Origin: a virus
Virus record (IMG/VR): IMGVR_UViG_3300044825_002278
Coordinates: 1 to 64,000 of that record
Reading direction: 5' to 3' (one strand)
DNA: 64,000 nucleotides
Part shown: positions 5,824 to 63,114 of the stretch, piece by piece
Layout of the letters: every line of letters starts with the position of its first letter
How positions within the stretch are numbered: the stretch's first letter is position 1
Program-made: the position numbers and the translations under genes
The notes under the pieces: generated by a model
Database searches by the model: none
What the model was told of the DNA's origin: nothing
What the model saw: only the letters and a program-made list of their open reading frames with translations

Positions 5824-5864
5824 TAAAGCAATTTTTAGTCCGAGTTCGAGTCTTGGTACGCCTA
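5824..5864 (+). pseudogene. Orphan 3' half of a tRNA (probably class II, Leu-like)
   Basis: AAA-GCAA-TTT variable-arm-like hairpin, T-arm CCGAG-TTCGAGT-CTTGG, 3' acceptor strand TACGCCT-A; no 5' half upstream. Confidence 0.6.
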
Positions 5865-13295: not shown

Positions 13296-13316
13296 TTGTG
13301 CTATAATAAATAACAT

Positions 13317-13400
13317 GGCGTTGTGACGTAACGGCAGCCGTAACGGACTTAAAATCCGTTGGGAATTAATCCCGTGTGGGTTCGACTCCCACCAACGCTA
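13317..13400 (+). tRNA. tRNA-Leu(TAA)
   Basis: GGCGTTG/CAACGCT acceptor, ACGGA-CTTAAAA-TCCGT anticodon arm, long variable arm. Confidence 0.93.
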
Positions 13401-13419
13401 TTTTAGATAAGGAACAATT

Positions 13420-22909: not shown

Positions 22910-23199
22910 GGGCTAGTAACGGTATCGATTTGATATGGAAGATTTAAATGCATCGCGTAGTTGGGATAGAGGCTACGTTAAAACTATTCCACAAATTTAA
23001 TTGGCAAGAATACTCTTGCTCTTGCTGCCTAATAAGTAGCTAGGGTTGTCAAACACCCTATTAACCAAAGTTTGACAGCGTAATATCGTTCTTGGACTGA
23101 CTTGCCTTGCTGTCAGGTAAAAAATGCAATGCGCTAACGATGTAGATTTTATTTTGGAAGTATTCAAAGACCCGAGTTCGACTCTCGGCTAGTCCACCA
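22910..23199 (+). ncRNA. ssrA: tmRNA, tag (A)GKNTLALAA
   Basis: GGGCTAG/CTAGTCC-ACCA acceptor with G3:U70, CCGAG-TTCGACT-CTCGG T-arm, internal frame GGC AAG AAT ACT CTT GCT CTT GCT GCC TAA. Confidence 0.93.
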
Positions 23200-35832: not shown

Positions 35833-38070
35833 ATGAAAGTAACAAAAGCAAACGGAGAGCAGGAAAATTTCTCCGTTGAAAAAATTCACAAAGTAGTTGA
35901 ATGGGCGACCAAAGGAATTAATGGAGTATCCTTTTCTGACGTTGAAATGAATGCCAATCTATCTATTTATGATGGCATCTCCACAAAAGAAATACATCAA
36001 GTATTGATTAAATCGGCCAACGATCTAATTTCAACGCACACTCCAAATTATCAATATGTTGCTTCTAGGCTTCTTAATATGCAGCTTAGAAAAGAGGTTT
36101 GGAATTGCGGCAAACTTCACAATCCAGTTGATTTTACATTGTTTGTCAAAAGAAACATCGACAATGGAATTTATGATCCGATATTGGAAAAGAAGTGGAA
36201 CAACGATCAAATTGAAGATTTTGGAAAGTATATCGATCATACCCGCGATGATTTATTTACTTATGCTGGTTTGCAGCAAATGATTGACAAATATCTTGTC
36301 AAGAATCGAAGCACCGGACAAATTTACGAAACGCCACAGTTTGCATACATGTGTATTGCTATGTGTTTATTTAATACTGTTGATGAAGTAAAACAAGCAT
36401 ACGATTGTTATTCTACTTTTAAAATCAATCTTCCTACTCCGATCATGGCTGGCGTAAGAACGAATATACGTCAATTTGCTAGTTGTGTTTTGGTTGATGT
36501 AGAAGATAACTTGGATAGTATTTTCTCAAGTATTCATGCCGTTGGAAAGTACACAGCGCGAAGAGCTGGTATAGGGCTTAATATAGGTCGTATGCGCCCC
36601 ATTAACTCACCCATTCGAGGAGGTGAGGTTATTCACACTGGCGTAATACCATATTTAAAGAACTTTGAATCGGTTGTCAAATCAACATCGCAAAATGGTA
36701 TTCGCGGAGGAAGTGCAACCGTTCATTGTCCTTGGTGGCATTATGAAATCGAGGATATTCTCGTTTTAAAAAACAACGCTGGAACTGATGATAATCGCGT
36801 TCGCAAATTAGATTATTCTATTCAATTTTGTAAGCTGTTTTACGACCGTTTGATCAATAATCAAGAAATAACCCTTTTTAGTCCACACGAAGCTAAGGGT
36901 CTTTACGAAGCTTTTGGAAACAATAAAAAGTTTGAAGAGCTTTATTTGAAGTATGAAAATACTCGATCAATGAAGTTTAAGAAAAAGATACCAGCGCGAA
37001 AGCTTGCTGAAGTATTTGCGCGAGAACGTCTTGAAACAGGTAGAATCTACAGCATGAATATTGATACGGCCAACGAACATGGCTCGTGGAATATTCCTTG
37101 TTATATGTCTAATTTGTGTCAAGAAATCATTCATCCGACAAAACCAATCAAGTCCATAGACGACCCAAATGGCGAAATTGGAATTTGTATTTTATCTGCA
37201 CTAAATCTTCTTGAAATTTTTGAAGAAGAAGGCGATGTTGAAAAGGCTTGTAAAATAGCAGTCAAGACGCTTGATGCTGTTATCGACTATCAAGACTATC
37301 CAGTTTTGGCAGGAGAAAACTTTACAAAAAATCGTAGGTCTTTAGGGATTGGCGTTACAAACCTAGCTGGATTTTTAGCAAAGAATAAACTAAAATACGA
37401 AGATCCGCAAACATTGGTTTTAATCCACGATATTATGGAAAAAATTCAATGGCATTTGATAAGCGCTAGTTGCGATCTAGCAAAGGAAAAGGGCGCATGT
37501 CCAAAGTTTAGCGATACAAAATATGCTCAGGGTCTTATGCCAATTGATTGGTATAAAAAGACAGTTGACGAACTGGTTGCTCCAAAGTATAATATGGACT
37601 GGGAAGAGTTGCGCGAGCGTGTTTTGACGTATGGTATGCGACATTCTACCTTGTCGGCAATTATGCCCTGTGAATCATCGAGCGTTATTCAAAACAGCAC
37701 AAATGGTATCGAGCCAGTTAGAAGTTTGCTTTTGTTTAAGAAAGCTAAAAATGGTGTTTTGAAGCAGTTAGTACCAAATTATCACATGCGAAAGAATTAT
37801 TATACTTTAGCTTGGGAAATGACTAGCAACAAGCCGATAATGAATGTTGCGGCAGTTATACAAAAATTTGTTGATATGAGCATGAGTACAAATTTGTATT
37901 ACAATTATGCTCATTATGAAGGAGGAAATATTCCACTAAGCGTATTAATCAAAGATCAAATTTACGGTTATAAGTACGGATTGAAGAATTTTTATTATGC
38001 CAACACTCCAGATGGTGATGGCGATACTGAAAAAGGCATGAATTGCGAATCTGGCGCGTGTTCAATTTAA
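35833..38070 (+). CDS. nrdA: Class Ia ribonucleotide reductase alpha subunit
   Basis: ATP cone, TPIMAG..QFASC, SNLCQEI, CILSA, KNFYY, C-terminal CESGAC. Confidence 0.97.
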   Translation: MKVTKANGEQENFSVEKIHKVVEWATKGINGVSFSDVEMNANLSIYDGISTKEIHQVLIKSANDLISTHTPNYQYVASRLLNMQLRKEVWNCGKLHNPVDFTLFVKRNIDNGIYDPILEKKWNNDQIEDFGKYIDHTRDDLFTYAGLQQMIDKYLVKNRSTGQIYETPQFAYMCIAMCLFNTVDEVKQAYDCYSTFKINLPTPIMAGVRTNIRQFASCVLVDVEDNLDSIFSSIHAVGKYTARRAGIGLNIGRMRPINSPIRGGEVIHTGVIPYLKNFESVVKSTSQNGIRGGSATVHCPWWHYEIEDILVLKNNAGTDDNRVRKLDYSIQFCKLFYDRLINNQEITLFSPHEAKGLYEAFGNNKKFEELYLKYENTRSMKFKKKIPARKLAEVFARERLETGRIYSMNIDTANEHGSWNIPCYMSNLCQEIIHPTKPIKSIDDPNGEIGICILSALNLLEIFEEEGDVEKACKIAVKTLDAVIDYQDYPVLAGENFTKNRRSLGIGVTNLAGFLAKNKLKYEDPQTLVLIHDIMEKIQWHLISASCDLAKEKGACPKFSDTKYAQGLMPIDWYKKTVDELVAPKYNMDWEELRERVLTYGMRHSTLSAIMPCESSSVIQNSTNGIEPVRSLLLFKKAKNGVLKQLVPNYHMRKNYYTLAWEMTSNKPIMNVAAVIQKFVDMSMSTNLYYNYAHYEGGNIPLSVLIKDQIYGYKYGLKNFYYANTPDGDGDTEKGMNCESGACSI

Positions 38071-38081
38071 CGAGGTAATAA

Positions 38082-39152
38082 ATGAAGACTATTTTTAACA
38101 CAAACAATGTAGACCCTATGACTCAGCCCCTTTTCCTTGGAAAGGATTTGGGTGTTCAAAGATATGATATTATCAAGTATCCTATATTCAAGGAACTCGA
38201 TAGCAAGCAAATGATGAATTTTTGGAGGCCAGAAGAAATCGAATTAAAGAAAGATCGGGCAGATTTTAAGGAAATGTCCGAGAACGAAAAGTTTATTTTT
38301 ACGTCTAATCTTAAGTATCAGACAATGCTTGATAGCGTTATCTGTCGCGGAGTACCAACTTTACTGGAATATGTAACAAATAGCGAGCTTGAGGCGTGTC
38401 TTATGACATGGCAATTTTTTGAAAAAATTCACTCTCAAAGCTATAGTTATATCATCCAAAATGTCTATGCAGATAGCAAAGAGGTATTTGACGGCATTTA
38501 TGAAGACAAGGAAATCATGAAAAGGGCCAATAGCGCCATCGAGGATTACAATAACTTGATGGGTATGGCTTGTGATACTAATAAGATTTCTGACATAAAA
38601 AAACAAATCTATATGACTATTGTGAGTATAAATATTCTGGAAGCGGTTCGTTTTTATGTTAGCTTTGTATGCAGTTTCGCCTTTGCTGAAAATAAGAAAA
38701 TGGTCGGAAATGCGGATATTATCAAGCTGATCAAACGCGACGAAGCTTTGCACCTCATGAATACTCAACAAATACTTAAAATTTTACATACAGAAGAATC
38801 TGAAGGTTTTGTCAAAACCGCTCAACAGTGCCAACAAGCTGCCTGTGAATTGTTCGACAGAGCCGCAAAAGAGGAAAAGGAATGGGCTTCTTACCTGTTT
38901 AAGAATGGCTCAATTATAGGTCTAAACGAAACTGTACTGCATCAGTATGTCGATTGGCTTGTAATGTCAAGACGCAAAGCAATAGGATTGCCTTATGAAA
39001 ATGTAGGCAAAAACCCAATTGCAGGATGGACAGAACACTGGATGAATAGTGAGGCTGTTCAAGTTGCTCCACAAGAACACGAAATTACCTCATACAAAAT
39101 TGGAGCGAGTAAAAATGATCTTGAAGACATAGATTTCGGAGGCGTATTATGA
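38082..39152 (+). CDS. nrdB: Class Ia ribonucleotide reductase beta subunit
   Basis: FWRPEE, EKIHSQSY, LEAVRFY, RDEALH, QVAPQE. Confidence 0.97.
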   Translation: MKTIFNTNNVDPMTQPLFLGKDLGVQRYDIIKYPIFKELDSKQMMNFWRPEEIELKKDRADFKEMSENEKFIFTSNLKYQTMLDSVICRGVPTLLEYVTNSELEACLMTWQFFEKIHSQSYSYIIQNVYADSKEVFDGIYEDKEIMKRANSAIEDYNNLMGMACDTNKISDIKKQIYMTIVSINILEAVRFYVSFVCSFAFAENKKMVGNADIIKLIKRDEALHLMNTQQILKILHTEESEGFVKTAQQCQQAACELFDRAAKEEKEWASYLFKNGSIIGLNETVLHQYVDWLVMSRRKAIGLPYENVGKNPIAGWTEHWMNSEAVQVAPQEHEITSYKIGASKNDLEDIDFGGVL

Positions 39153-39763
39153 GAAAAGCCCTGCAAAGAACCGCGTCTATTTTATTTCTATCTCTTGTTT
39201 TCACTTTAATTTCTTCGAGTATTTATAGTCAAACGTGTTTTGTAAGGTGTGAACCAGATAAGGAAATCGGAGGCGGAGCTTGCGGATCTGGCTTTTTTAT
39301 TTCAAAAAATGAAATCCTAACTGCTGCCCATGTAATAAATGATGCAAACAATGTTAGGGTTGAATTTGATGGAAAGTATTTTATGGCTTCTGTTGTCAAA
39401 CAAGATGTGTCAAAAGACCTAGCGCTATTGAAAATAAATGAAGAATGTGATGTATTTTACAAACTCAGCGATGATTCTGGAAAAATTGAGCAAGAAGTAA
39501 CTTGTTATGGATTTCCGAGAGGCGTTTGGAGTATGTATAAATCAGAAGGAGTTATCAAGGAAATTAATAGCGTAAATAGGGACTCTACTGACAAGTCAAG
39601 ACTTGAGTATGCTGTTTTTATGAATGTAACAAACGGAATGTCTGGCGGTCCTCTTTTAACTAAAGATAAGGTTGTCATAGGCGTTCTAAGTAGTAAAAAT
39701 GTTATTGGCGAACAAAGAGCAAATTTTATTTCGCTTGAGGAAATAAGAAAGTTTCTTGACTAA
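39149..39763 (+). CDS. Secreted trypsin-like serine protease
   Basis: Signal peptide; GSGF..LTAAHV, DLALL, GMSGGP. Confidence 0.88.
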   Translation: MRKALQRTASILFLSLVFTLISSSIYSQTCFVRCEPDKEIGGGACGSGFFISKNEILTAAHVINDANNVRVEFDGKYFMASVVKQDVSKDLALLKINEECDVFYKLSDDSGKIEQEVTCYGFPRGVWSMYKSEGVIKEINSVNRDSTDKSRLEYAVFMNVTNGMSGGPLLTKDKVVIGVLSSKNVIGEQRANFISLEEIRKFLD

Positions 39764-39775
39764 AGTTAAAACAAA

Positions 39776-39893
39776 GCGAGAGCCAAGTGGTTGGTGGTAT
39801 TTAGGATAGGACATTGTTCACAAACTCTGCTTCCTATGTAGACGGTGATCAATGCTAAATATCGTAAAGCTGGTTCGAGTCCAGCCTCTCGCC
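39776..39893 (+). ncRNA. tRNA-like RNA with extended anticodon arm (CCT loop)
   Basis: GCGAGAG/CTCTCGC acceptor; GCTGG-TTCGAGT-CCAGC T-arm; three stacked helices in place of the anticodon arm. Confidence 0.8.
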
Positions 39894-39924: not shown

Positions 39925-39978
39925 ATGGAAAATAGTGTTGAACTTCTTGGTTATTATTTTTTAAAAAACAACATTTAA
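39925..39978 (+). pseudogene. Displaced 5' stub of a thyX allele
   Basis: AAAGGA RBS then MENSVELLGYY, paralleling MVELISYW at the start of intact thyX. Confidence 0.65.
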
Positions 39979-39988
39979 AGTCAAAATT

Positions 39989-40089
39989 TGTGTATAATAC
40001 TATGGATAAATTCGCGGTTATCCATATGTAAACAAAATAACTTTACCCCCCTTTTGTTTGATGCCGCGAACATCTCCAATTGTGGGGGT
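39989..40089 (+). promoter_or_regulatory. TGTGTATAAT motif plus double-pseudoknot leader of the GIY-YIG gene
   Basis: Four complementary segment pairs (detailed in findings). Confidence 0.6.
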
Positions 40090-40105
40090 TTTTTATTAAA
40101 ATATT

Positions 40106-40753
40106 ATGAAATCAGGAATATATCAAATAAAAATAAACAATAGTTTTTATATTGGGTCTTCTAAAAATATTCAAAGAAGATACTGGGAACATTTATGGAA
40201 ATTAAAAAATAAAAAACATCCAAATATCCATTTACAAAATTTGTATAATAAACATGGAGAAGAAAAATTTGAATTATTTATATTGGAAAGTTGCACAATA
40301 AATTGTTTAATAGAGAGAGAGCAATACTGGATTAATTTATTAAATCCAAATATAAACAAAGCACCAGTTGCTGGTTCAACATTAGGACTAAAATTAACAA
40401 ATGAACAATGCAAAAATAGAAGCAAAAATAATATTGGAAGAAAACATTCTCTTGAATCTATCAAAAAAAGAACAGATAAAATAAAAGGTAGAAAATATAC
40501 AGAAAAACACAGAGAAAATATATCTAAAAGCAGATTAGGTAAAAAACAAAATCAACAAACAATTAAAAATAGGGCAGAAAAAAATAAAAAACCTATTGCT
40601 TGTTATGATTTAAATTATATATTAATACGAATATACGATTCCGCTAAAACAGCGGCTTTAGAAAACAATTATCATGCAACAAACATAACAAGATGTTGTA
40701 AAAATAAAATTAAAACTTATAAAAACAAGATTTGGAGGTATTGGGATGGTTGA
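40106..40753 (+). CDS. GIY-YIG homing endonuclease with NUMOD3/NUMOD1-like DNA-binding repeats
   Basis: SGIYQI..FYIGSS, EREQYWI, GRKHSLES, KPI..YD..YDSAK.AA. Confidence 0.9.
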   Translation: MKSGIYQIKINNSFYIGSSKNIQRRYWEHLWKLKNKKHPNIHLQNLYNKHGEEKFELFILESCTINCLIEREQYWINLLNPNINKAPVAGSTLGLKLTNEQCKNRSKNNIGRKHSLESIKKRTDKIKGRKYTEKHRENISKSRLGKKQNQQTIKNRAEKNKKPIACYDLNYILIRIYDSAKTAALENNYHATNITRCCKNKIKTYKNKIWRYWDG

Positions 40754-41393
40754 ACTTATTTCATATTGGGGCAATGATTTAATGATCGTTAACGCCGCTA
40801 GAGTATCTTTTGGAAAATATAAAAATAAATTAGACGAGAAAGATAAAAAATTAATTAAATTTCTTAAAGAACATAAACACGTTAGTGTATTTCGTCATCC
40901 GCAATTACAATTTAGGATCACATGCCCAATTTTTGTAGAAAGACAATTGTTTAAACATCAAGTAGGGATGTCTGCTAATAGTATATCCGGTAGATATGTT
41001 GACTTTAGCGATTCTTATTTTAGTTTTAAAGATGGGGAGTGGCGGAAACAATCAGCGAATTCTAAACAAGGAAGCTCTGGTCCGGTTTTAAATAATCTTC
41101 AACATAAATGTACAAAAATACAAAATAGCGTAGTAGATATTTGTAAAAACGCATATAATGAATTATTATCTTTAGGCGTTTCAAAAGAACAAGCAAGAAC
41201 TATACTTCCGCTATGTTTAAATACAACTTTTATTTGGACAGGTTCTTTATTATCATTTTTACATCTTTGGGAATTAAGATTAAAAGAAGATGCTCAACAG
41301 GAAACCAGAGAAATCGCTGTTAAAATGCTAGAGTTGGTCAAGGGCATCGAAGGCAATCCGTTTAAACATACGCTTGAAGCGTGGGGATATTGA
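40746..41393 (+). CDS. thyX: Flavin-dependent thymidylate synthase
   Basis: NAARVSF, H.SVF.H, RQLFKHQ..NSISGRY, EQARTILP, LR....AQ.E.R. Confidence 0.92.
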   Translation: MVELISYWGNDLMIVNAARVSFGKYKNKLDEKDKKLIKFLKEHKHVSVFRHPQLQFRITCPIFVERQLFKHQVGMSANSISGRYVDFSDSYFSFKDGEWRKQSANSKQGSSGPVLNNLQHKCTKIQNSVVDICKNAYNELLSLGVSKEQARTILPLCLNTTFIWTGSLLSFLHLWELRLKEDAQQETREIAVKMLELVKGIEGNPFKHTLEAWGY

Positions 41394-50628: not shown

Positions 50629-52085
50629 AAAATAAGTTAGAAGATTTAGCTTCAGAACGCGCGGTTTTGGCTGCGCTGTGCCAGTATGGTCTAGACGCAT
50701 ATTTAGATGTAGACTTTATTGATTCTAGGTCTTTTACAGACCCAATCAATCAGTTAATATTTGACTGTATTTATAAATCAATATCTGAAAATACTCAGGT
50801 AGAGCTTTCGTCTATTCTTTCTGCCGCAAACAACTTGGGTGTAGCAGAACAGATAAATAACAAAGACGAAATAGCTTTTATTAGATCATTATTTAACTTT
50901 CCAATACACAAATCAAATGTTGGTGTTTACGCCGCAAAAATAGCAAAACTTAAGCTCGCTAGAGATTTGTTGCAAACACTTCGTGCCTGCGAGAAAGAAC
51001 TTGGAAATGTTACAGGCGAAGAAGATATCATTGATATTATATCAAAGATAGAAGAGCCTCTACTTGATGCAACTGGCGATATATACCAATCATCAAGCAA
51101 AAAAACTCAAACGCTTGGAGAAGGTCTAGATGAGTATTTGGAATATGTTTCCAACAATGTTTCTGATTTTGTTGGTATACCAAGTGGATTTCCTGCTTAT
51201 GATGCTGCTATAGGCGGAGGATTGCGTAGGAAGTGCGTTGATCTTGTTGCAGCTAGACCAAAGGTTGGTAAATCAATGTTTGGCGATGCTGTAGCTTTGC
51301 ATGTAGCGAGCAAATTAAATATTCCGGTTTTGATGCTTGATACTGAAATGTCAAAAGAAGATCACTACAATAGAATTTTAGCCAACTTGTCTGGTGTTGA
51401 AATTAATAAGATTTCCACTGGCAAGTTTAGCGAGAATGAAATTGAAAAAGAAAAGGTTTTTACTGCCGCTAAAAAGCTAAAAGAAATTCCATATCACTAT
51501 ATTAGTATTGCTGGAGAATCTTTTGAAAATATTTTGAGTCAGACTAGAAAATGGGTTTATCAACATGTAGGCTTTGACGAGAATGGTAAAACCAAAGACT
51601 GTCTCATAGTATATGACTATCTTAAACTAATGGGATCGGAAGGTATTAGCGCGGCTATGCAAGAATACCAAGTTCTTGGTTTTCAAATAACTAAACTTCA
51701 CAATTTTGTTGTTAAATATGATGTTCCGTGTTTAGCTTTTGTGCAGTTAAATAGAGATGGTATTACTAAAGAAAGCACCGATGCAGTTTCTGGTTCGGAT
51801 CGTTTGATTTGGCTTTGTACAAGTTTTTCAATATTCAAACTAAAATCAGACGAAGAAAAGGCCACTGACGGAACAAACAATGGAGATAGAAAATTAGTGC
51901 CGGTTGTTTCTCGTCATGGAGAAGGTTTGGATGATGGCGACTATATTAGCATGAAAATGCATGGCCGTTACGGAAGAATTGAGCAGGGTTTAACAAGAAA
52001 TGAAATTCATGAAAACAACAAAGTTAGACAAGAAGGTTTTGAAACCGACAACATTGACGAAGGAGAAGATTTCGTCGTTATGTGA
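50613..52085 (+). CDS. dnaB: Replicative DNA helicase
   Basis: SERAVLA N-domain, GIPSGF, AARPKVGKS, EMS, VYDYLKLM, QLNR. Confidence 0.92.
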   Translation: MSKKIENKLEDLASERAVLAALCQYGLDAYLDVDFIDSRSFTDPINQLIFDCIYKSISENTQVELSSILSAANNLGVAEQINNKDEIAFIRSLFNFPIHKSNVGVYAAKIAKLKLARDLLQTLRACEKELGNVTGEEDIIDIISKIEEPLLDATGDIYQSSSKKTQTLGEGLDEYLEYVSNNVSDFVGIPSGFPAYDAAIGGGLRRKCVDLVAARPKVGKSMFGDAVALHVASKLNIPVLMLDTEMSKEDHYNRILANLSGVEINKISTGKFSENEIEKEKVFTAAKKLKEIPYHYISIAGESFENILSQTRKWVYQHVGFDENGKTKDCLIVYDYLKLMGSEGISAAMQEYQVLGFQITKLHNFVVKYDVPCLAFVQLNRDGITKESTDAVSGSDRLIWLCTSFSIFKLKSDEEKATDGTNNGDRKLVPVVSRHGEGLDDGDYISMKMHGRYGRIEQGLTRNEIHENNKVRQEGFETDNIDEGEDFVVM

Positions 52086-55932: not shown

Positions 55933-56677
55933 GATAGTTTTATTAATCGAATTTTTTAAATCAGAATTTGAGGAAAGAAATAAAGAGTTCTTAGAAGCTC
56001 TAAGAAGAAATATAGACTGCGAGCATATTCACAAGATTGTTTTATTTTATGAAAATAGTCTTGATGAATATCCAGATATTCCATATAGCCCAAAAGTAGA
56101 AATAGCATATACCAAAAAGAGAATGACTTTTGGTGATTATTTTACTTACTGCAACAATAAGCTTAATAGTAACATTTACATTGTGGCGAACAGTGACATA
56201 TATTTTGATGATTCAATAAAGCATGTTTGTTCGATGGGCGAAAATGACTTTTTATGCATCACTAGGTGGAATAATGGTATTTTACAAGGACATGCCGCTT
56301 ATTCTCAGGACGTATGGGTTTTTAGAAAAAAAATACCAGATAACATGATGCGTTATTGCGATTTTCAGCTTGGTAAACAACAATGTGACAACAGAGTTGC
56401 TTTTCTAGCGATGAGAAGCGGGTTTAACATAATTAATCCATGCTATTTAGTTAAATGTCATCATTTACACAAAGATCCAAATAAAATAACTTACAAGAAA
56501 GATGATTTTCATAAAGACCTTGCGAGATTGTCGTCTATAGAGCCAACCGATAGAATTGAATATGAACCAAACAATGTTTGTGGTTTTATTGGTAACTTTT
56601 TTGGAAATAAATATATTGAATTTTTTAGGAATGAATTGAATGAGTTGGAATCCAATAAATTGCAAAACACACTTTAG
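55859..56677 (+). CDS. Glycosyltransferase-like protein
   Basis: IVANSDIYFD, SQDVWVF, CDNR, HLH; start uncertain. Confidence 0.55.
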   Translation: MVMMQQWRNVQKMDTISDITKRRDKIVLLIEFFKSEFEERNKEFLEALRRNIDCEHIHKIVLFYENSLDEYPDIPYSPKVEIAYTKKRMTFGDYFTYCNNKLNSNIYIVANSDIYFDDSIKHVCSMGENDFLCITRWNNGILQGHAAYSQDVWVFRKKIPDNMMRYCDFQLGKQQCDNRVAFLAMRSGFNIINPCYLVKCHHLHKDPNKITYKKDDFHKDLARLSSIEPTDRIEYEPNNVCGFIGNFFGNKYIEFFRNELNELESNKLQNTL

Positions 56678-58214
56678 TTTACAGCATGGGTTTTGTAAAC
56701 CAGATAAATTAGCCAAGAAATGCTCTGACTATGGTTATCAAGCCTGTGGAATAGCAGATTTTGGAACGCTTTCTGGAGCTGTAGATTTCCATCAAAGTTG
56801 TACAAAACATGGAATCAAACCGATTATTGGTTGTGAATTCGATGGTTATATTCTTTATGCAAAAAACAAAGACGGTTGGTTTGATTTGGTTAAATATGTT
56901 TCAAATCAAAATCTTGAAGTGTTGAAAGAAATAGCAAAGAATGGAAACGTGCTTTGCGTTACTCCATCTGTAAATGGATTTGCTAATTTGTTTAAAAGTA
57001 ATCATATACAGATGGACTACTCAGACGAAGCTATTTATTATGTTGAAAAAGATGACGCTGATTGTCACCGTATTATGCTATGCGGAAAGTTAAAAACTAC
57101 ACTGAAAAAAGTGAAGAATATTGAAAACAATGAATATCAACAGTTCTTTGACGGTAACGATAGATGGTATCTTCCATCGCAGGAAGAGTCAAACAAAACC
57201 AGTAGTATTGATAAGCTGGTAAATGTCTGTGAAGCTTATGAACTTGCTGGCCCTCCAATGTTGCCAAACTTTGAATGTCCAATTGGTTATGATGAAGATC
57301 AATACCTAACCGAGCTGTGTCGAGTTGGGTGGAAAAAGAAACTTGTTCCGTGTAATAAAGTATCTACAGAAGAACAAAAAAACATTTATGCAGAAAGAGT
57401 CAAACACGAACTCAAAGTTATATTCAAGGCAAAACTTTCTGGTTATTTCTTGATCGTTCAAGACATTATCAAATGGGTCAAATCAAAAGGCTGGCTTGCT
57501 GGTCCCGGACGAGGCAGCGCTGCTGGGTGTCTGATTTCTTATCTGCTTGACATTACCGAAGTTGATCCAATAGAATATGATTTAATTTTCGAGCGTTTTT
57601 ATAATGAAGGAAGAAACACAGAAGGCAATGTTGCAATTCCAGATATAGATATGGATGTGCCAGCGGAACATCGCGACGAAGTTATAGATTATATCAAACA
57701 AAAATATGGCGAATCCAATGTGTCTCAAATGATTACATTTGGGCGTTTACAGGGAAGAGCCGCAGTAAAAGAGGTTTTGAGAATCAATGAAGCTGTGTCA
57801 TTTGCAGAAATGAATGCTATAACAGATAGTATTCCAGATGAAGCTAAAATTTCTGATCAGTTAGAGCTTATGGAAGATAAGTCAATTATCAAATGGGCTT
57901 TGGAAAATGAACCAGATAATTTAAGAAATTGGTGTTTTTATAACGATAATAATGAACTTGATGGGCCACTAGCCAATTTGTTTCAACAAGCAATTAAAAT
58001 AGAAGGAACAAACAAATCCCAAGGAAAACATCCCGCTGGAGTTATTATATCAAAACATAAGCTCAACGAGGTTTGTCCGATGACAAACGATAAATCTGGA
58101 GATCCTGTTGTTGCTTTTGAAATGAATGCTCTTGAATATCAAGGTCATATAAAATTTGACGTTTTAGGAATTGATTTACTGTCTAAGATAATGGAGATTT
58201 GCGATGAAGAATGA
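56640..58214 (+). CDS. dnaE: DNA polymerase III alpha, N-terminal part (PHP and palm)
   Basis: HFSL..G, KPIIGCE, GPGRGSAAG, FERF, PDIDMD, HPAGV, KFDVLG. Confidence 0.92.
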   Translation: MSWNPINCKTHFSLQHGFCKPDKLAKKCSDYGYQACGIADFGTLSGAVDFHQSCTKHGIKPIIGCEFDGYILYAKNKDGWFDLVKYVSNQNLEVLKEIAKNGNVLCVTPSVNGFANLFKSNHIQMDYSDEAIYYVEKDDADCHRIMLCGKLKTTLKKVKNIENNEYQQFFDGNDRWYLPSQEESNKTSSIDKLVNVCEAYELAGPPMLPNFECPIGYDEDQYLTELCRVGWKKKLVPCNKVSTEEQKNIYAERVKHELKVIFKAKLSGYFLIVQDIIKWVKSKGWLAGPGRGSAAGCLISYLLDITEVDPIEYDLIFERFYNEGRNTEGNVAIPDIDMDVPAEHRDEVIDYIKQKYGESNVSQMITFGRLQGRAAVKEVLRINEAVSFAEMNAITDSIPDEAKISDQLELMEDKSIIKWALENEPDNLRNWCFYNDNNELDGPLANLFQQAIKIEGTNKSQGKHPAGVIISKHKLNEVCPMTNDKSGDPVVAFEMNALEYQGHIKFDVLGIDLLSKIMEICDEE

Positions 58215-58885: not shown

Positions 58886-59572
58886 ATGAATAATAGAGAT
58901 ATTATAGTATTCGATTTTGAAACCACTGGTCGTAATCCATTAAAGTGTCAACCAACACAGATTGCCGCTGTGGCTATTCATGCAAGAAAACTTACAATAC
59001 AACCCGGAGGAATATTTGAAAGCAACATACGATGCATTGTAGACGATGAAAAAGCTATAGCTGCTGGTTTTGATCCTGTTGAAGATGGCGCTCTGGAAGT
59101 AACTAGAAAAACAAGAGATCAAATATCCAAAGGGCCGTCGCCAAAAGTAGTCTGGCAAAAGTTTGCTCAGTTTTGCGATAAGTTCAATTTCAATAAAACT
59201 CCATTTTCAGCGCCAATTGCGGCAGGGTACAATATCAATAGTTATGATATGCCGATTGTACAACGCATGTGCGAAATGTATGGACCAACAGATGAAAAAA
59301 CTGGTCGCCAAAAACTATTTAATCCTATCTTTTCAATGGATCTTATGCAGCATATTTATTGTTGGTTTGAAAATAATTCCGATGTTAAGGGCTATAGTAT
59401 GGATTATATGCGCGATTATTTTGGAATGTCAAAAGAAAAATCTCATGACGCATTGCAAGATGTGAAAGATACGGCTAATATACTAATAAGGTTTCTTGTT
59501 ATGCAAAGAAACTTGTCCAAGAAGATTAAATTTGAAAAAGCTTTTGCGAACGGCGAATTGTATATAAAGTAG
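58886..59572 (+). CDS. dnaQ: DEDDh 3'-5' exonuclease (DnaQ/epsilon-like)
   Basis: FDFETTG, GYN..YD, HDALQD. Confidence 0.85.
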   Translation: MNNRDIIVFDFETTGRNPLKCQPTQIAAVAIHARKLTIQPGGIFESNIRCIVDDEKAIAAGFDPVEDGALEVTRKTRDQISKGPSPKVVWQKFAQFCDKFNFNKTPFSAPIAAGYNINSYDMPIVQRMCEMYGPTDEKTGRQKLFNPIFSMDLMQHIYCWFENNSDVKGYSMDYMRDYFGMSKEKSHDALQDVKDTANILIRFLVMQRNLSKKIKFEKAFANGELYIK

Positions 59573-59580
59573 GAATTTGA

Positions 59581-61140
59581 ATGTTCGATATCAATAATTT
59601 TGACGACCCCGAAGTTTGGGATTTAATTTGCGAAGGTGATACCAAGGGTATATTCCAGTTGGAATCTAATCTTGGTAAACATTGGGCTAAAGAAACTAAA
59701 CCTAGAAACATCAAAGAACTAGCCGCTTTGATTAGCCTTATTCGTCCGGGTACGCTTTTAGCTAGAGATGCCAATGGCAAAAGCATGACTCAAGTTTATG
59801 CAGATAGAAAAGGTGGCAAACCAAATTCGCCAGTTGAATACCTCCATGAATCTCTTGAGCCAATATTGAAAGAAACTTACGGTGTGTTGGTATATCAAGA
59901 ACAATCCATGATGATTGCCCAAAAATTAGCTGGTTTCGATCTTAAAGAAGCCGATGCGTTGCGTAAGGCTATTGGCAAAAAGAAAGCAGACCTTATGGAG
60001 AAAGTCAAAAGGGCATTCTTAGAGGGAACTGAAAAACAAGGTATTGTATCAAAAGAAATTGCAGAAGAACTTTTTTCGTGGATTGAAAAATCTAACCGTT
60101 ATGCATTCAACAAATCGCACGCGATTTCTTATGCAATCAATGCTTATTGGTCTGCTTATTGCAAAACATATAGAAGAAAGAAGTTTTACGAGAAGTATCT
60201 GAATAGGGCCGATAGAAAGCCAGCTCCAGACATTGAGAAAAAACAACTGATTATGGATGCAAGACGTTTTGGTATTGAAGTTTTGCCACCAAGGTTACAA
60301 CATTTACATAAAGATTTTACAAGACACCCAGAAAAAGACATAGTTTACTACGGGCTTGCTCATATAAAACATGTGGCCGAAAAAGAGTCTGAAAAACTTT
60401 CCAGTCTTACAAATGTAGAAAATTACAATTGGATGGATTGTTTGATAAACATTATTTACGAACTTGGAATCAATAAAAGCGCGACCGTGGCGTTTATATC
60501 GGTTGGGGCATTCAATGGTCCAAACAATCGTATAAGCAGGCAAAAGATGCTTTATGAGTTTGATAGCTGGCGACAATTGACTCAAAAAGAACAAGATGCC
60601 ATAGCAATATCGTACAATTCTGATGCTAATAAACCAAAAGATTTATATGAAGCGATGCAAAAATTAACTTCCACAGTAAAAATAAATGCTAGAAGGCTTC
60701 AATCAATAGAAGATATCAAACAGTCTTTAAAAAATCCGTTTTATGATATCGAAGATAAATTCGAGACGATAGCAATCGATGAAGAAAAATATATGAGTTG
60801 TTCTTTGACTTGCAGCAAGGTTGATGGATTAGAGATAAATACTACGATAAATATGTGTCAAGAAGTATCTAGCAAGTCTATAATAGGTAAAGTGAGTCTT
60901 GCTATTGAAATTGTGCGCATTAAAATTGTAAAGACTAAAAAGGGTAAAACTCCCGGCCAAGAAATGGCCTTTCTTACTGTAGAAGATGGAAGCGGCTCAT
61001 TGGATTCAATAACCGTATTCCCAGAAGCTTATGACAAATATAAAGACTTGCTTGTAGAAAATAATACTGTTCTTTTGATTGGCGAAATATCTAAAAAAGA
61101 CAAAGGATCTGTAATCGTCAATCAAGTATCACAAATTTGA
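59581..61140 (+). CDS. dnaE: DNA polymerase III alpha, C-terminal part (fingers, HhH, OB)
   Basis: DDPEVW..GDTKGIFQLES, LIRPG, ETYGVLVYQEQ, YAFNKSHA, MAFLTVED. Confidence 0.92.
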   Translation: MFDINNFDDPEVWDLICEGDTKGIFQLESNLGKHWAKETKPRNIKELAALISLIRPGTLLARDANGKSMTQVYADRKGGKPNSPVEYLHESLEPILKETYGVLVYQEQSMMIAQKLAGFDLKEADALRKAIGKKKADLMEKVKRAFLEGTEKQGIVSKEIAEELFSWIEKSNRYAFNKSHAISYAINAYWSAYCKTYRRKKFYEKYLNRADRKPAPDIEKKQLIMDARRFGIEVLPPRLQHLHKDFTRHPEKDIVYYGLAHIKHVAEKESEKLSSLTNVENYNWMDCLINIIYELGINKSATVAFISVGAFNGPNNRISRQKMLYEFDSWRQLTQKEQDAIAISYNSDANKPKDLYEAMQKLTSTVKINARRLQSIEDIKQSLKNPFYDIEDKFETIAIDEEKYMSCSLTCSKVDGLEINTTINMCQEVSSKSIIGKVSLAIEIVRIKIVKTKKGKTPGQEMAFLTVEDGSGSLDSITVFPEAYDKYKDLLVENNTVLLIGEISKKDKGSVIVNQVSQI

Positions 61141-61150
61141 AAGGTAAAAT

Positions 61151-61483
61151 GTGAATAAATGTCATTTTTTAGGAAAGCTAACCTGCGATCCTAAAGTTAA
61201 AAAAGAAAATAATGTTCCGGTAATAAATTTTGAATTAGAAATAGAAGAGTTTAGAAAAGACAACAATAAAGAAAAGGTAAGGTCTTTAACTTATTTGAAT
61301 TTCGAGGCATGGGATACGGCAGCAGAGGCAATTGAAAAGTATGCCAAAAAAGGAAGTTTGATGGCCATCGAATCTGTAGCGAGAAATTATTTTTATGAAG
61401 ACCCGCATGATCCAGAAGCAGATGAAATAACTGAAACTTATTTTAGGGTAACTAATTTTAAAATACTCGGAATAGGAATATGA
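61151..61483 (+). CDS. Second SSB-like OB-fold protein
   Basis: NKCHFLGKL..DP, EAWD..AE...KKGS. Confidence 0.7.
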   Translation: MNKCHFLGKLTCDPKVKKENNVPVINFELEIEEFRKDNNKEKVRSLTYLNFEAWDTAAEAIEKYAKKGSLMAIESVARNYFYEDPHDPEADEITETYFRVTNFKILGIGI

Positions 61484-63114
61484 GAAAAAAAAGAATACTT
61501 TGGGTAAACGATGCCTCATGGAAAGGCACTGGTTATGCTGTTTATTCTAATGAAGTACTATCTAGACTTAATAAAGTTGAAGATTTTGAAGTGGCTGAAA
61601 TAGCTTGTTATGCAGACAAAAACGATCCGCATATCAAAGATGTTCCTTGGAAGGTTTACGCCAATAGACCATTAGAAACTGATCCAAATTTTGAAAACTA
61701 TGTCAAAAATCCAAGTTTAATTTTTGGCGAGAATGTTTTTAATGAAGTTCTTTTGGATTTTATGCCGGATATAGTTATGGATATACGCGATTGGTGGATG
61801 TTTGAATACCAGCAGCGTTCGCCATTCAGGGAATTTTTTCACTGGTCAATAATGCCAGCGGTAGATGCATCGCCTCAAAATCCGCAATGGATTAATACTT
61901 ATGCTTCAGCCGACAGTGTTTTTGGTTATTGTGAATTTAGTAAAGAAACCCTTGAAAATCAATCTGATAAAATAAATTTCATCGACATAGCGTCTCCTGC
62001 GGCCAATGCAAATGATTTTGTTCCAGTAAAAGATAAAGCGACCCACAAAGACAATATGGGATTAGACGCAAATTCAATTATTGTTGGAACTGTGATGCGA
62101 AATCAACGACGAAAGCTTTACCCAGATTTATTTAAAGCTTTTAGAATGTTTCTGGATGAAACTAAAAACCCAAACGTATTTCTATTCTGCCATAAATATT
62201 ATCCAGATATTGGGTGGGAAACTCCAGCATTGCTTGATATGTTTGGGTTGAGTAATAGAGTTTTGTTTTCTTACAAATGCCAAGAATGTAAACATATTAG
62301 CGTTGACTTCTTTAAAGATTCAGTCACTCATTGCGAAAAATGCAAAAAGTTTTCAAAACGCTTGGTGGGTGTTGATAATACAATGAGCAATGAGGAACTA
62401 AGCAAAATATACAATTTATTTGATGTTTATGTTCAATATGCCAATAGCGAAGGATTTGGTATGCCTCAGCTTGAGGCAGCTTATTGTGGCATTCCGGTTA
62501 TGACCATTTATTATTCAGCAATGAAATCTGTTGCAGACAACATAGGAGCTATTCCTATTTATCCAATAGAATATTCTATGGAATGTGAAACTGGATGCTA
62601 CAGAGCGATACCAAACAATCAACAATTTGTAGAAAAATTGAAAGAAGTTTTAAGCACCGATTTTCGTTCTGCTGGTTTAAAAACAGCGGAGCTTGCCAGA
62701 AAGCATTATAGTTGGGACAAAACTGCAAATGCTTGGATTGATCATTTTAGAACGATACCGCTGAAAGATCATTCTGAAACTTGGCGGTCGCCGCCTAAGA
62801 TATTTGAGCCAGCAACTACTATACCAAGCGAAATAATAGACCTTAAAGATCAAATAAATTACATATTTAGATACGTTCTACACAAACCAGAATGGATTGG
62901 CGGTTACTTCTGGTCTAAAGTTTTAAAAGATATTACTTTTGGATACCGCGTAAGAAACTCAGAAGATGACTATTACTTTAATGAGTCGCATATGCCAGCA
63001 GTTGATAAATACCAAAAGTTTAATTTTGTTATGGCAGTGAACGAACTAACAAATCTTAGAAATCAATGGAATCAATGGGAAAGGCTCAGAAGTGAACATG
63101 TTGCAAGATTTTAG
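61480..63114 (+). CDS. GT4-family glycosyltransferase with an inserted zinc ribbon
   Basis: TGY, RNQRRK, CQEC..CEKC, NSEGFGMPQLEA..CG.P. Confidence 0.85.
   Translation: MRKKRILWVNDASWKGTGYAVYSNEVLSRLNKVEDFEVAEIACYADKNDPHIKDVPWKVYANRPLETDPNFENYVKNPSLIFGENVFNEVLLDFMPDIVMDIRDWWMFEYQQRSPFREFFHWSIMPAVDASPQNPQWINTYASADSVFGYCEFSKETLENQSDKINFIDIASPAANANDFVPVKDKATHKDNMGLDANSIIVGTVMRNQRRKLYPDLFKAFRMFLDETKNPNVFLFCHKYYPDIGWETPALLDMFGLSNRVLFSYKCQECKHISVDFFKDSVTHCEKCKKFSKRLVGVDNTMSNEELSKIYNLFDVYVQYANSEGFGMPQLEAAYCGIPVMTIYYSAMKSVADNIGAIPIYPIEYSMECETGCYRAIPNNQQFVEKLKEVLSTDFRSAGLKTAELARKHYSWDKTANAWIDHFRTIPLKDHSETWRSPPKIFEPATTIPSEIIDLKDQINYIFRYVLHKPEWIGGYFWSKVLKDITFGYRVRNSEDDYYFNESHMPAVDKYQKFNFVMAVNELTNLRNQWNQWERLRSEHVARF

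What the first reader, a model, noticed from the sequence alone, without database searches (positions are those of the whole stretch)
39776..39893. tRNA-shaped RNA with a stretched anticodon arm that can pair with its own anticodon
Seen in sequence: perfect 7-bp acceptor (39776-82/39886-92), canonical T-arm with TTCGAGT, and a minimal D-like hairpin CCAA-GTGG-TTGG. The anticodon arm is replaced by three stacked helices: GGTATTTAG/CTAAATATC, a 7-nt one-sided bulge GATAGGA, CATTGTTCAC/GTGATCAATG (one mismatch), an AAAC/CG internal loop, then a 5-bp stem TCTGC/GTAGA closing a 7-nt loop TTCCTAT. That loop has anticodon-loop geometry (U33, CCT, A37), and the bulge ATAGGA is its exact 6-nt complement, containing the AGG codon. 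Inference: too long to decode, but it could be processed like a tRNA and act as a tRNA mimic (decoy for anticodon nucleases or RelA, ribosome or synthetase ligand), or as a switchable or processed tRNA-Arg precursor. I do not recognise it as a known family.
Basis: partly seen in the sequence, partly recalled or inferred. Interest (0 to 1): 0.85.

Follow-up and report, generated by a model that had tools for sequence, protein, structure and literature searches.

The report
Phage tRNA look-alike with long arm
An uncultivated ~150-kb phage carries a 118-base RNA gene that keeps the top half of a tRNA but has a long hairpin where the anticodon arm should be; its shape looks kept by selection, it cannot read codons, its role is unknown, and the self-pairing "anticodon" is found in this genome only.

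Summary
The minimum-free-energy fold of 39776-39893(+) is exactly the drawn shape (-41.5 kcal/mol, z = -3.8). ARAGORN and Rfam do not call it; the best match is tRNA-Sec at 17.7 bits against a cut-off of 47.

Only one other version exists in all collections searched. It is an 86-nt ortholog in a collinear, complete 148-kb relative (three contigs, identical RNA). It shares the acceptor stem, D hairpin, 8 pairs of the 9-bp proximal stem, lower helix 2 and T arm. Of 30 homologous pairs, 28 are intact, with 3 compensatory double changes (neutral simulation P = 2e-4; conservative core P = 0.013).

The ortholog lacks the 7-nt bulge, upper helix 2 and the anticodon-like stem-loop. The CCU loop and its AGG-containing complement are therefore not family features. 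Within this one sequence, though, the 6-nt complementarity is unlikely by chance (P about 0.003).

No excision gives the same tRNA in both orthologs. Two other relatives lack the gene at this locus.

Best reading: a selectively maintained, non-decoding, tRNA-derived RNA processed like the phage's other tRNA genes. It is analogous to T4 RNA C, whose function is also unknown. A decaying tRNA gene is the main rival.

This scan has noted other odd phage tRNA look-alikes on other DNA, but not this family.

The parts
39776..39782 (+). Acceptor stem, 5' strand (GCGAGAG)
   Evidence: Pairs perfectly with 39886-39892. In the ortholog, pair 6:112 changes A-U to G-C (compensatory) and pair 4:114 becomes C.U.
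39783..39794 (+). D-like hairpin CCAA-GUGG-UUGG, directly abutting the acceptor stem with no 8-9 linker; the loop GG could make the elbow contacts
   Evidence: Identical in the ortholog. The same 12-mer is the D-arm core of tRNA-Cys(GCA) in freshwater Bacteroidota MAGs, so it descends from an ordinary D arm. RNAalifold alternatively pairs G7 with position 20 (G.U here, G-C in the ortholog).
39796..39804 (+). Proximal stem of the long arm, 5' strand (GGUAUUUAG)
   Evidence: Pairs with 39855-39863. Eight of 9 pairs are kept in the ortholog: one G.U becomes G-C, one G-C becomes A-U (compensatory), and the outermost pair is lost.
39805..39811 (+). 7-nt one-sided bulge GAUAGGA, second copy of the tandem TAGGA; complement of the apical loop
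   Evidence: Absent from the ortholog.
39812..39821 (+). Helix 2, 5' strand (CAUUGUUCAC), one U.U mismatch
   Evidence: Pairs with 39845-39854. The lower 5 positions are homologous to the ortholog, with G-C to A-U (compensatory) and U.U to A-U; the upper part is absent there.
39822..39844 (+). Internal loop AAAC/CG, 5-bp distal stem UCUGC/GUAGA (one G.U) and 7-nt loop UUCCUAU (39831-39837) with U33-CCU-A37-like layout
   Evidence: Absent from the ortholog, whose apex is UUAA/UUAA plus AUGACGA, or UUAAU/AUUAA plus GACG.
39845..39863 (+). 3' strands of helix 2 (39845-39854) and of the proximal stem (39855-39863)
39864..39868 (+). 5-nt linker GUAAA in the place of a variable loop
   Evidence: Three of its 5 positions differ in the ortholog (GCAGU), and the adjoining stem-closing base 39863 differs too (C to A).
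39869..39885 (+). T arm GCUGG-UUCGAGU-CCAGC
   Evidence: The stem is identical in the ortholog and one loop base differs.
39886..39893 (+). Acceptor stem 3' strand (CUCUCGC) plus discriminator C; no encoded CCA, U-rich trailer
   Evidence: Same layout as the phage's six tRNA genes.
39149..39763 (+). Upstream gene: trypsin-like serine protease, ending 12 nt before the RNA; preceded by nrdA (35833-38070) and nrdB (38082-39152)
   Evidence: Pfam. No promoter-like or terminator-like site lies between this gene and the RNA.

Best explanation
This is a real tRNA-derived small RNA gene of a narrow lineage of uncultivated ~150-kb phages. It keeps the acceptor/T-arm minihelix, a T loop and a GG-containing D loop, which are the parts that make the tRNA elbow. 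It has lost a working anticodon arm, which is replaced by a long irregular hairpin. The proximal 8-9 bp and lower helix 2 of that hairpin are conserved; its tip differs between lineages. Shown: the fold, the absence of any canonical tRNA reading, conservation of 28 of 30 homologous pairs with compensatory changes, tRNA-like gene grammar, and presence/absence among close relatives. Inferred: it is transcribed with the nrdA-nrdB-protease-thyX message, cut out by host RNase P and 3' processing enzymes, and given CCA like the phage's tRNAs. It then persists as a stable, non-decoding tRNA mimic, a counterpart of T4 RNA C. Its effect would come from the tRNA-like top half, either by occupying a host factor that recognises the acceptor/T-arm/elbow or simply by punctuating and stabilising the operon transcript. 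The CCU loop and its complementary bulge are an add-on seen only in this genome.
For: The fold equals the drawn structure, z = -3.8. ARAGORN, default and with introns, finds nothing. Rfam at gathering thresholds finds nothing here, and the best sub-threshold match is tRNA-Sec at 17.7 bits against 47. An ortholog sits at the same locus in G001, G002 and G004. Those genomes are collinear with this one at about 78-82% nucleotide identity. Of 30 homologous pairs, 28 are intact, with 3 compensatory doubles, one G.U to G-C and one mismatch to pair. Neutral simulation gives P = 2e-4 for intactness and 0.008 for the compensatory doubles; using only unambiguously aligned core pairs, P = 0.013. The RNAalifold consensus keeps the acceptor stem, D hairpin, proximal stem and T arm. 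Trailer and CCA status match the phage's tRNAs, and no own promoter or terminator is found. T4 rnaC likewise combines a tRNA T arm with long helices and has no known role (PMC3014915, PMC9697503).
Against: There are only two distinct sequences, so the covariation evidence is thin, and part of the alignment (helix 2, pair 29:80) is structure-guided. Overall identity of the RNA core (about 80-83%) is no higher than that of the flanking genes. The gene is missing at the same locus in two relatives, and the model matched none of the 20 DnaB-related records searched, mostly short fragments; it is therefore dispensable. The lineage clearly carries decaying tRNA genes and stray T arms. No phage partner protein was found: no CCA-adding enzyme, RNA ligase, SmpB, Ro or Pth2.
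Confidence: 0.55

Rival explanations
1. It is a decaying tRNA gene. A former phage tRNA had its anticodon arm wrecked by insertions and duplications, and it now drifts without function. The helices look good only because little time has passed.
For: tRNA content differs strongly between the two genomes (6 against 9 called tRNAs). G002 has an apparently degenerate tRNA-Leu ortholog, three tandem orphan T arms and other uncalled tRNA-like pieces, and G000 has an orphan T arm at 5840-5856. The RNA is absent from close relatives. The arm shows a 32-nt length difference and a TAGGA tandem duplication. Core identity equals that of the flanks.
Against: With 16 substitutions in 79 aligned positions, random decay would leave 28 of 30 pairs intact only about 2 times in 10,000 (1.3% on the conservative core). 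There are three double compensatory changes. Both very different arms remain almost perfectly paired hairpins.
Confidence: 0.22
2. It is purely a cis-acting processing signal. A tRNA-shaped RNase P/RNase Z site cuts the nrdAB-protease message from the thyX message, and the excised RNA itself has no role.
For: It lies 12 nt after the protease stop and about 30 nt before the (ancestral) thyX start, with no promoter or terminator. Only the parts RNase P needs (acceptor stem, T arm, elbow) and the base of the arm are conserved, and the tip is free to vary. That RNase P cuts tRNA-like structures inside operon mRNAs is established knowledge for E. coli.
Against: Relatives without it keep the same gene order. 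A processing signal does not need a 14-24-bp arm whose pairing is compensated.
Confidence: 0.12
3. It is a working decoder or a switch. Either the arm is trimmed or spliced to give tRNA-Arg(CCU), or the loop-bulge pairing toggles the RNA between two states or mimics a codon-anticodon duplex for a ribosome, nuclease or stringent-response factor.
For: The loop has a U33-CCU-A37-like layout and a 6-nt exact complement in the bulge, P about 0.003. The bulge and the loop are both present here and both absent in the ortholog. Because of the TAGGA repeat, the 3' strand can pair in two registers. That would leave a 5-bp stem and a 7-nt loop interrupted at 37/38 by a 51-nt hairpin (read from the sequence).
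Against: The implied anticodons differ between orthologs under every reading (CCU against GAC at the tips; AGG against AAC in the 37/38 reading). ARAGORN accepts the RNA only after one-sided deletions. AGG is a rare codon here, 3.5 per 1000. The alternative pairing costs 8.7 kcal/mol. No phage ligase or splicing endonuclease was found.
Confidence: 0.06

Closest known systems
Bacteriophage T4 RNA C (species 1 RNA, rnaC, 139 nt)
   Same: A phage-encoded stable small RNA made from tRNA-type transcripts. It contains a canonical tRNA T arm next to a 3' acceptor-like strand, plus long extra helices. Its function is unknown after decades (PMC3014915, PMC9697503).
   Different: No detectable homology beyond the T arm (19 bits with my model). 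T4 RNA C sits inside the tRNA cluster, has two long hairpins and an imperfect acceptor stem, and shows no D-like hairpin in its predicted fold. The present RNA is a clean cloverleaf-like four-way design located in a nucleotide-metabolism operon.
tRNA-like domain of tmRNA, including tRNA-like-domain-only stumps reported in some phages
   Same: Acceptor stem plus T arm plus a reduced D region, with the anticodon arm replaced by a long helix. The phage also carries a full tmRNA (22910-23199).
   Different: It has G3-C70 and discriminator C instead of G3.U70 and A73. It has no tag reading frame or pseudoknots, no SmpB gene is in the phage, and Rfam tmRNA does not match it.
Bacterial Y RNA YrlA (tRNA-mimicking module; PMC4201824)
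   Same: A non-decoding RNA with T-arm and D-arm mimicry and a long helix where the anticodon stem would be.
   Different: YrlA has permuted topology: the ends are in the long stem and the acceptor stem is closed by a loop. It is encoded beside a Ro (TROVE) gene. Here the ends are in the acceptor stem and no TROVE gene exists.
Canonical and noncanonical phage tRNAs
   Same: Acceptor stem, T arm, D-loop GG, no encoded CCA, U-rich trailer, scattered among phage ORFs.
   Different: No anticodon arm at the tRNA distance, no conserved anticodon, no 8-9 linker, and not called by ARAGORN or Rfam.

Membership tests
Canonical tRNA (Rfam RF00005 / ARAGORN) | Recognised by the family model at its threshold | tested here: not met
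   ARAGORN default and intron modes give nothing. Rfam at gathering thresholds gives nothing at this place. The best match in the clan is tRNA-Sec at 17.7 bits.
Canonical tRNA (Rfam RF00005 / ARAGORN) | 7-bp acceptor stem, and 5-bp T stem with a UUCRANY loop | tested here: met
Canonical tRNA (Rfam RF00005 / ARAGORN) | 5-bp anticodon stem with a 7-nt loop stacked on the D arm at the standard distance, with the anticodon conserved among orthologs | tested here: not met
   The arm is 24 bp plus loops here and about 14 bp in the ortholog. Tip loops read CCU against GAC, or a GACG tetraloop.
Intron-containing tRNA (anticodon-loop intron, 37/38) | Removing one contiguous insert gives a canonical tRNA of the same identity in all orthologs | tested here: not met
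   Exhaustive deletion scan plus ARAGORN: only one-sided 21-24-nt (and three 9-nt, further along the same strand) deletions give Arg(CCT) here, and an unrelated Leu(TAA) in the ortholog. The low-threshold intron call is Ile(GAT) at position 32/33.
tRNA-Sec (RF01852) | Score at or above the gathering cut-off; 8/5 or 9/4 acceptor/T geometry; UCA anticodon | tested here: not met
   17.7 bits against 47, E = 0.43. Geometry is 7/5 and there is no UCA loop.
tmRNA / tRNA-like-domain-only tmRNA | G3.U70 alanine identity, A73, SmpB partner, with or without a tag ORF | tested here: not met
   G3-C70 and C73; no SmpB in G000 or G002; no RF00023 match here.
Y RNA / YrlA | Ro-binding stem formed by the 5' and 3' ends; neighbouring Ro (TROVE) gene | tested here: not met
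   The ends form the acceptor stem; no TROVE match in either genome.
T4 RNA C-like phage stable RNAs | Sequence or structure homology to T4 rnaC | tested here: inconclusive
   My model hits rnaC at 19 bits, through the T arm and acceptor strand only. No curated family exists to test against.

The most novel reading that the evidence does not exclude
The lineage-specific tip is functional. This phage grafted an anticodon-stem-loop mimic (CCU) and its matching codon (AGG, in the bulge) onto a tRNA-like scaffold. The result would be an RNA that presents a pre-formed or switchable codon-anticodon duplex on a body that is processed, and possibly charged, like a tRNA. It could act as bait for an anticodon nuclease, a ribosomal site or a stringent-response factor. 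The ortholog would carry a different bait (GAC).
Probability: 0.06. Interest if true: 0.8.

Novelty: new variant of a known kind. Interest (0 to 1): 0.42.

Why it matters
Phages carry many tRNA-shaped genes that gene finders miss. For the classic example, T4 RNA C, no function has been found in fifty years. This RNA is a clean, small case: the tRNA top half and the base of a long arm appear to be kept by selection, while the decoding end has been discarded and varies freely. If it is expressed, it offers a simple system for asking what a non-decoding tRNA body does for a phage: a decoy for tRNA-binding defence or maturation factors, operon punctuation, or something else. It also shows that an 'anticodon-like' loop in one genome is weak evidence without orthologs.

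Tried and rejected
1. Known families: ARAGORN in default, intron, metazoan-mitochondrial (with tmRNA) and lowered-threshold modes, and Rfam at gathering and E <= 10. No family fits.

2. GenBank phages: megablast of 2 kb and blastn of 261 nt gave no homolog. The protease has no close cultured relative.

3. Pattern scans:
- Five of IMG/VR (plus the syntax error), one of JGI metagenomes and one of GTDB genomes.
- Only the three G002-like contigs are true members.
- L011, L012 and L033 are chance matches.
- L006, L007 and L070-L079 are ordinary tRNAs or unrelated elements sharing the T arm.
- L031, L032, L034 and L035 are Bacteroidota tRNA-Cys genes sharing the D-arm 12-mer.

4. Covariance model R1:
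- Run on 5 related records, 20 DnaB-related records, the T4 tRNA region and two Bacteroidota MAGs.
- There are no further members.
- The 25.8-bit hit in G025 is a 15-bp perfect palindrome next to AT-rich sequence, not a homolog.

5. Repeat or mobile origin of the arm: blastn-short against both genomes found no other copy.

6. Partner enzymes: no CCA-adding enzyme, RNA ligase, SmpB, TROVE/Ro or Pth2 in G000 or G002.

7. Intron and tRNA-precursor readings were rejected.

8. Tools not available:
- One script call was lost.

Full report
**What the window is.**
- The window is the first 64 kb of a 103.9-kb IMG/VR virus record, estimated 67% complete and 37% G+C.
- In this part all long genes read on the + strand.
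- It carries six ordinary tRNA genes and a full tmRNA at 22910-23199 with tag GKNTLALAA.
- The finding lies 12 nt after a trypsin-like protease gene (39149-39763). That gene follows nrdA and nrdB.
- Downstream come a short stub of the thyX start, a GIY-YIG endonuclease gene (40106-40753) and thyX (40746-41393).
- There is no promoter-like or terminator-like site between the protease and the RNA, or directly after the RNA.

  - a 7-bp acceptor stem;
  - the hairpin CCAA-GUGG-UUGG;
  - a 9-bp stem, a 7-nt bulge and a 10-position helix with one U.U;
  - an AAAC/CG internal loop, a 5-bp stem and the 7-nt loop UUCCUAU;
  - a 5-nt linker, a T arm with UUCGAGU, and discriminator C.
- Energy is -41.5 kcal/mol and z = -3.8.
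- The bulge-loop complementarity of 6 nt is real and unlikely by chance. P is 0.001 for that pair and 0.003 for any pair of unpaired segments.
- As an alternative secondary structure it is 8.7 kcal/mol worse and absent from the ensemble.
- The bulge is the second copy of a tandem TAGGA-TAGGA.

**It is not a known family.**
- ARAGORN finds nothing with default, intron or mitochondrial settings. At a lowered threshold it proposes an implausible Ile(GAT) with an intron at 32/33.
- Rfam gives nothing at gathering thresholds. The best sub-threshold match is tRNA-Sec at 17.7 bits against a cut-off of 47.

**Relatives.**
- The protease gene led to four IMG/VR contigs.
- Three of them (G001, G002, G004) carry an identical 86-nt version at the same place. 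G002 is a complete 148,313-bp genome with terminal repeats.
- G002 is collinear with this genome at about 78-82% nucleotide identity.
- The fourth contig (L005) goes from the protease straight to thyX with no RNA.
- A more distant relative (G012) also has no RNA before thyX.
- The RNA model matched none of the 20 DnaB-related records searched, which are mostly short fragments.
- Seven pattern scans of viral, metagenome and genome collections gave no further member. The family as seen consists of two sequences.

**What is conserved.**

| Region | In the 86-nt ortholog |
|---|---|
| D hairpin | identical |
| T stem | identical |
| Acceptor stem | present, 6 of 7 pairs; pair 4:114 becomes C.U |
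| Proximal stem | present, 8 of 9 pairs; outermost pair lost |
| Lower half of helix 2 | present |
| Bulge | missing |
| Upper helix 2 | missing |
| Distal stem | missing |
| CCU loop | missing |

- The missing parts total 32 nt. The ortholog's arm ends in UUAA/UUAA plus AUGACGA, or UUAAU/AUUAA plus GACG.
- In a structure-based comparison, 28 of 30 homologous pairs are intact in the ortholog. The changes are:
  - three compensatory double changes (6:112, 29:80, 41:75);
  - one G.U to G-C;
  - one mismatch turned into a pair;
  - two pairs lost.
- Placing the observed 16 substitutions at random gives 28 or more intact pairs in 0.018% of trials, and three or more compensatory doubles in 0.8%.
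- Using only the 24 core pairs whose alignment does not depend on structure, P = 0.013.
- RNAalifold recovers the same core.
- This is modest but real evidence that the fold, not just the sequence, has been kept. The evidence rests on two sequences only.

**It does not decode.**
- The tip loops imply different anticodons in the two orthologs (CCU against GAC).
- A second reading arises from the TAGGA repeat: a 5-bp stem and a 7-nt loop, interrupted at 37/38 by a hairpin. It gives AGG here and AAC in the ortholog, both with A34.
- An exhaustive deletion scan found a canonical tRNA only after removing 21-24 nt (in three cases 9 nt) from the 5' strand of the arm here. Nothing corresponding exists in the ortholog.
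- AGG is a rare codon in this phage, 3.5 per 1000.
- An anticodon 24 bp from the elbow cannot reach the decoding centre while the acceptor end is in the peptidyl transferase centre. This follows from established tRNA geometry.

**What it most likely is.**
- The gene has the grammar of the phage's own tRNA genes: no encoded CCA and a U-rich trailer.
- It retains exactly the elements that RNase P, 3' processing enzymes and the CCA-adding enzyme recognise. This is established knowledge and was not tested here.
- The D-region 12-mer is the core of an ordinary D arm, as in tRNA-Cys of freshwater Bacteroidota MAGs. The RNA therefore descends from a normal tRNA.
- I read it as a non-decoding tRNA derivative that is excised from the operon transcript and persists as a small RNA.
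- Its closest described counterpart is T4 RNA C. That RNA also joins a tRNA T arm to long helices, and its role is still unknown (PMC3014915, PMC9697503).
- The phage encodes no CCA-adding enzyme, RNA ligase, SmpB, Ro or Pth2 that could hint at a partner.

**Main rival.**
- The lineage is full of tRNA debris.
- G002 has a 136-nt tRNA-like gene inside its tRNA cluster, a 97-nt one after its tmRNA (Rfam tRNA 28.6 bits against a cut-off of 29), three tandem orphan T arms, and an apparently degenerate tRNA-Leu.
- G000 has an orphan T arm at 5840-5856.
- A decaying tRNA gene is therefore a serious alternative, and the presence/absence pattern fits it.
- The pair-conservation statistics argue against it but cannot exclude it.

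**Verdict.**
- The tRNA-mimic reading is plausible.
- The self-pairing anticodon is specific to this genome and unproven.
- The kind of object, a phage tRNA-derived non-decoding RNA, is known. This architecture and family are not described.
- Other agents of this scan have reported different noncanonical phage tRNA-like genes on other genomes, but none is this family.

Noticed in passing
window 22910-23199 (+): The phage encodes a full-length tmRNA (Rfam 102 bits, tag GKNTLALAA, encoded CCA), but neither G000 nor the complete relative G002 has an SmpB gene. ARAGORN misses G002's tmRNA ortholog, but Rfam finds it at 77 bits.
   Followed up: partly
L026:1410-1506 (= G002 61410-61506, +): A 97-nt tRNA-like element lies directly after G002's tmRNA, inside a 2.3-kb insertion absent from this window. 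It has a perfect 7-bp acceptor stem and a T arm almost identical to that of the finding, with an A-rich unstructured 5' part, and is followed by a T-run. Rfam tRNA scores 28.6 bits (cut-off 29) and ARAGORN does not call it.
   Followed up: partly
G002 59431-59566 (+), in L025: A 136-nt tRNA-like gene is wedged between tRNA-Pro and tRNA-Ser in G002's tRNA cluster. It has an acceptor stem and a T arm, a 9-nt 'anticodon' loop CUUAGCUAA and about 66 nt with two extra hairpins in the variable region. ARAGORN calls it only after deletions, mostly as Ala(AGC).
   Followed up: partly
G002 51354-51469 and about 51680-51760 (+), in L025: There are three tandem orphan T-arm hairpins within 116 nt. Nearby is an ortholog of this window's tRNA-Leu(TAA) (13316-13401) whose acceptor strands no longer look complementary; ARAGORN does not call it.
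   Followed up: no
window 5840-5856 (+): An orphan T-arm hairpin CCGAG-TTCGAGT-CTTGG has no matching acceptor 5' strand. It lies about 450 nt after tRNA-Arg(TCT) and just before an RBS and start codon.
   Followed up: no
window 56640-58214, 58886-59572, 59581-61140 (+): The DNA polymerase is encoded in two pieces separated by a 228-aa ORF. In G002 the second piece is split again and the UvsX-like recombinase gene is also interrupted. Together with the GIY-YIG cassette at thyX, this lineage is riddled with mobile insertions.
   Followed up: no
window 39925-40753 (+): A comparison with G002 was made for thyX, which there starts right after the RNA. It confirms that the short ORF MENSVELLGYY here is the displaced original thyX start and that the GIY-YIG gene is an insertion.
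   Followed up: partly
L072:3220-3366 (+), 331-kb IMG/VR contig: A roughly 140-nt element runs from GCGAGCG to a T arm and the matching acceptor strand. ARAGORN does not call it; it may be another long tRNA-like RNA, in an unrelated jumbo phage.
   Followed up: no
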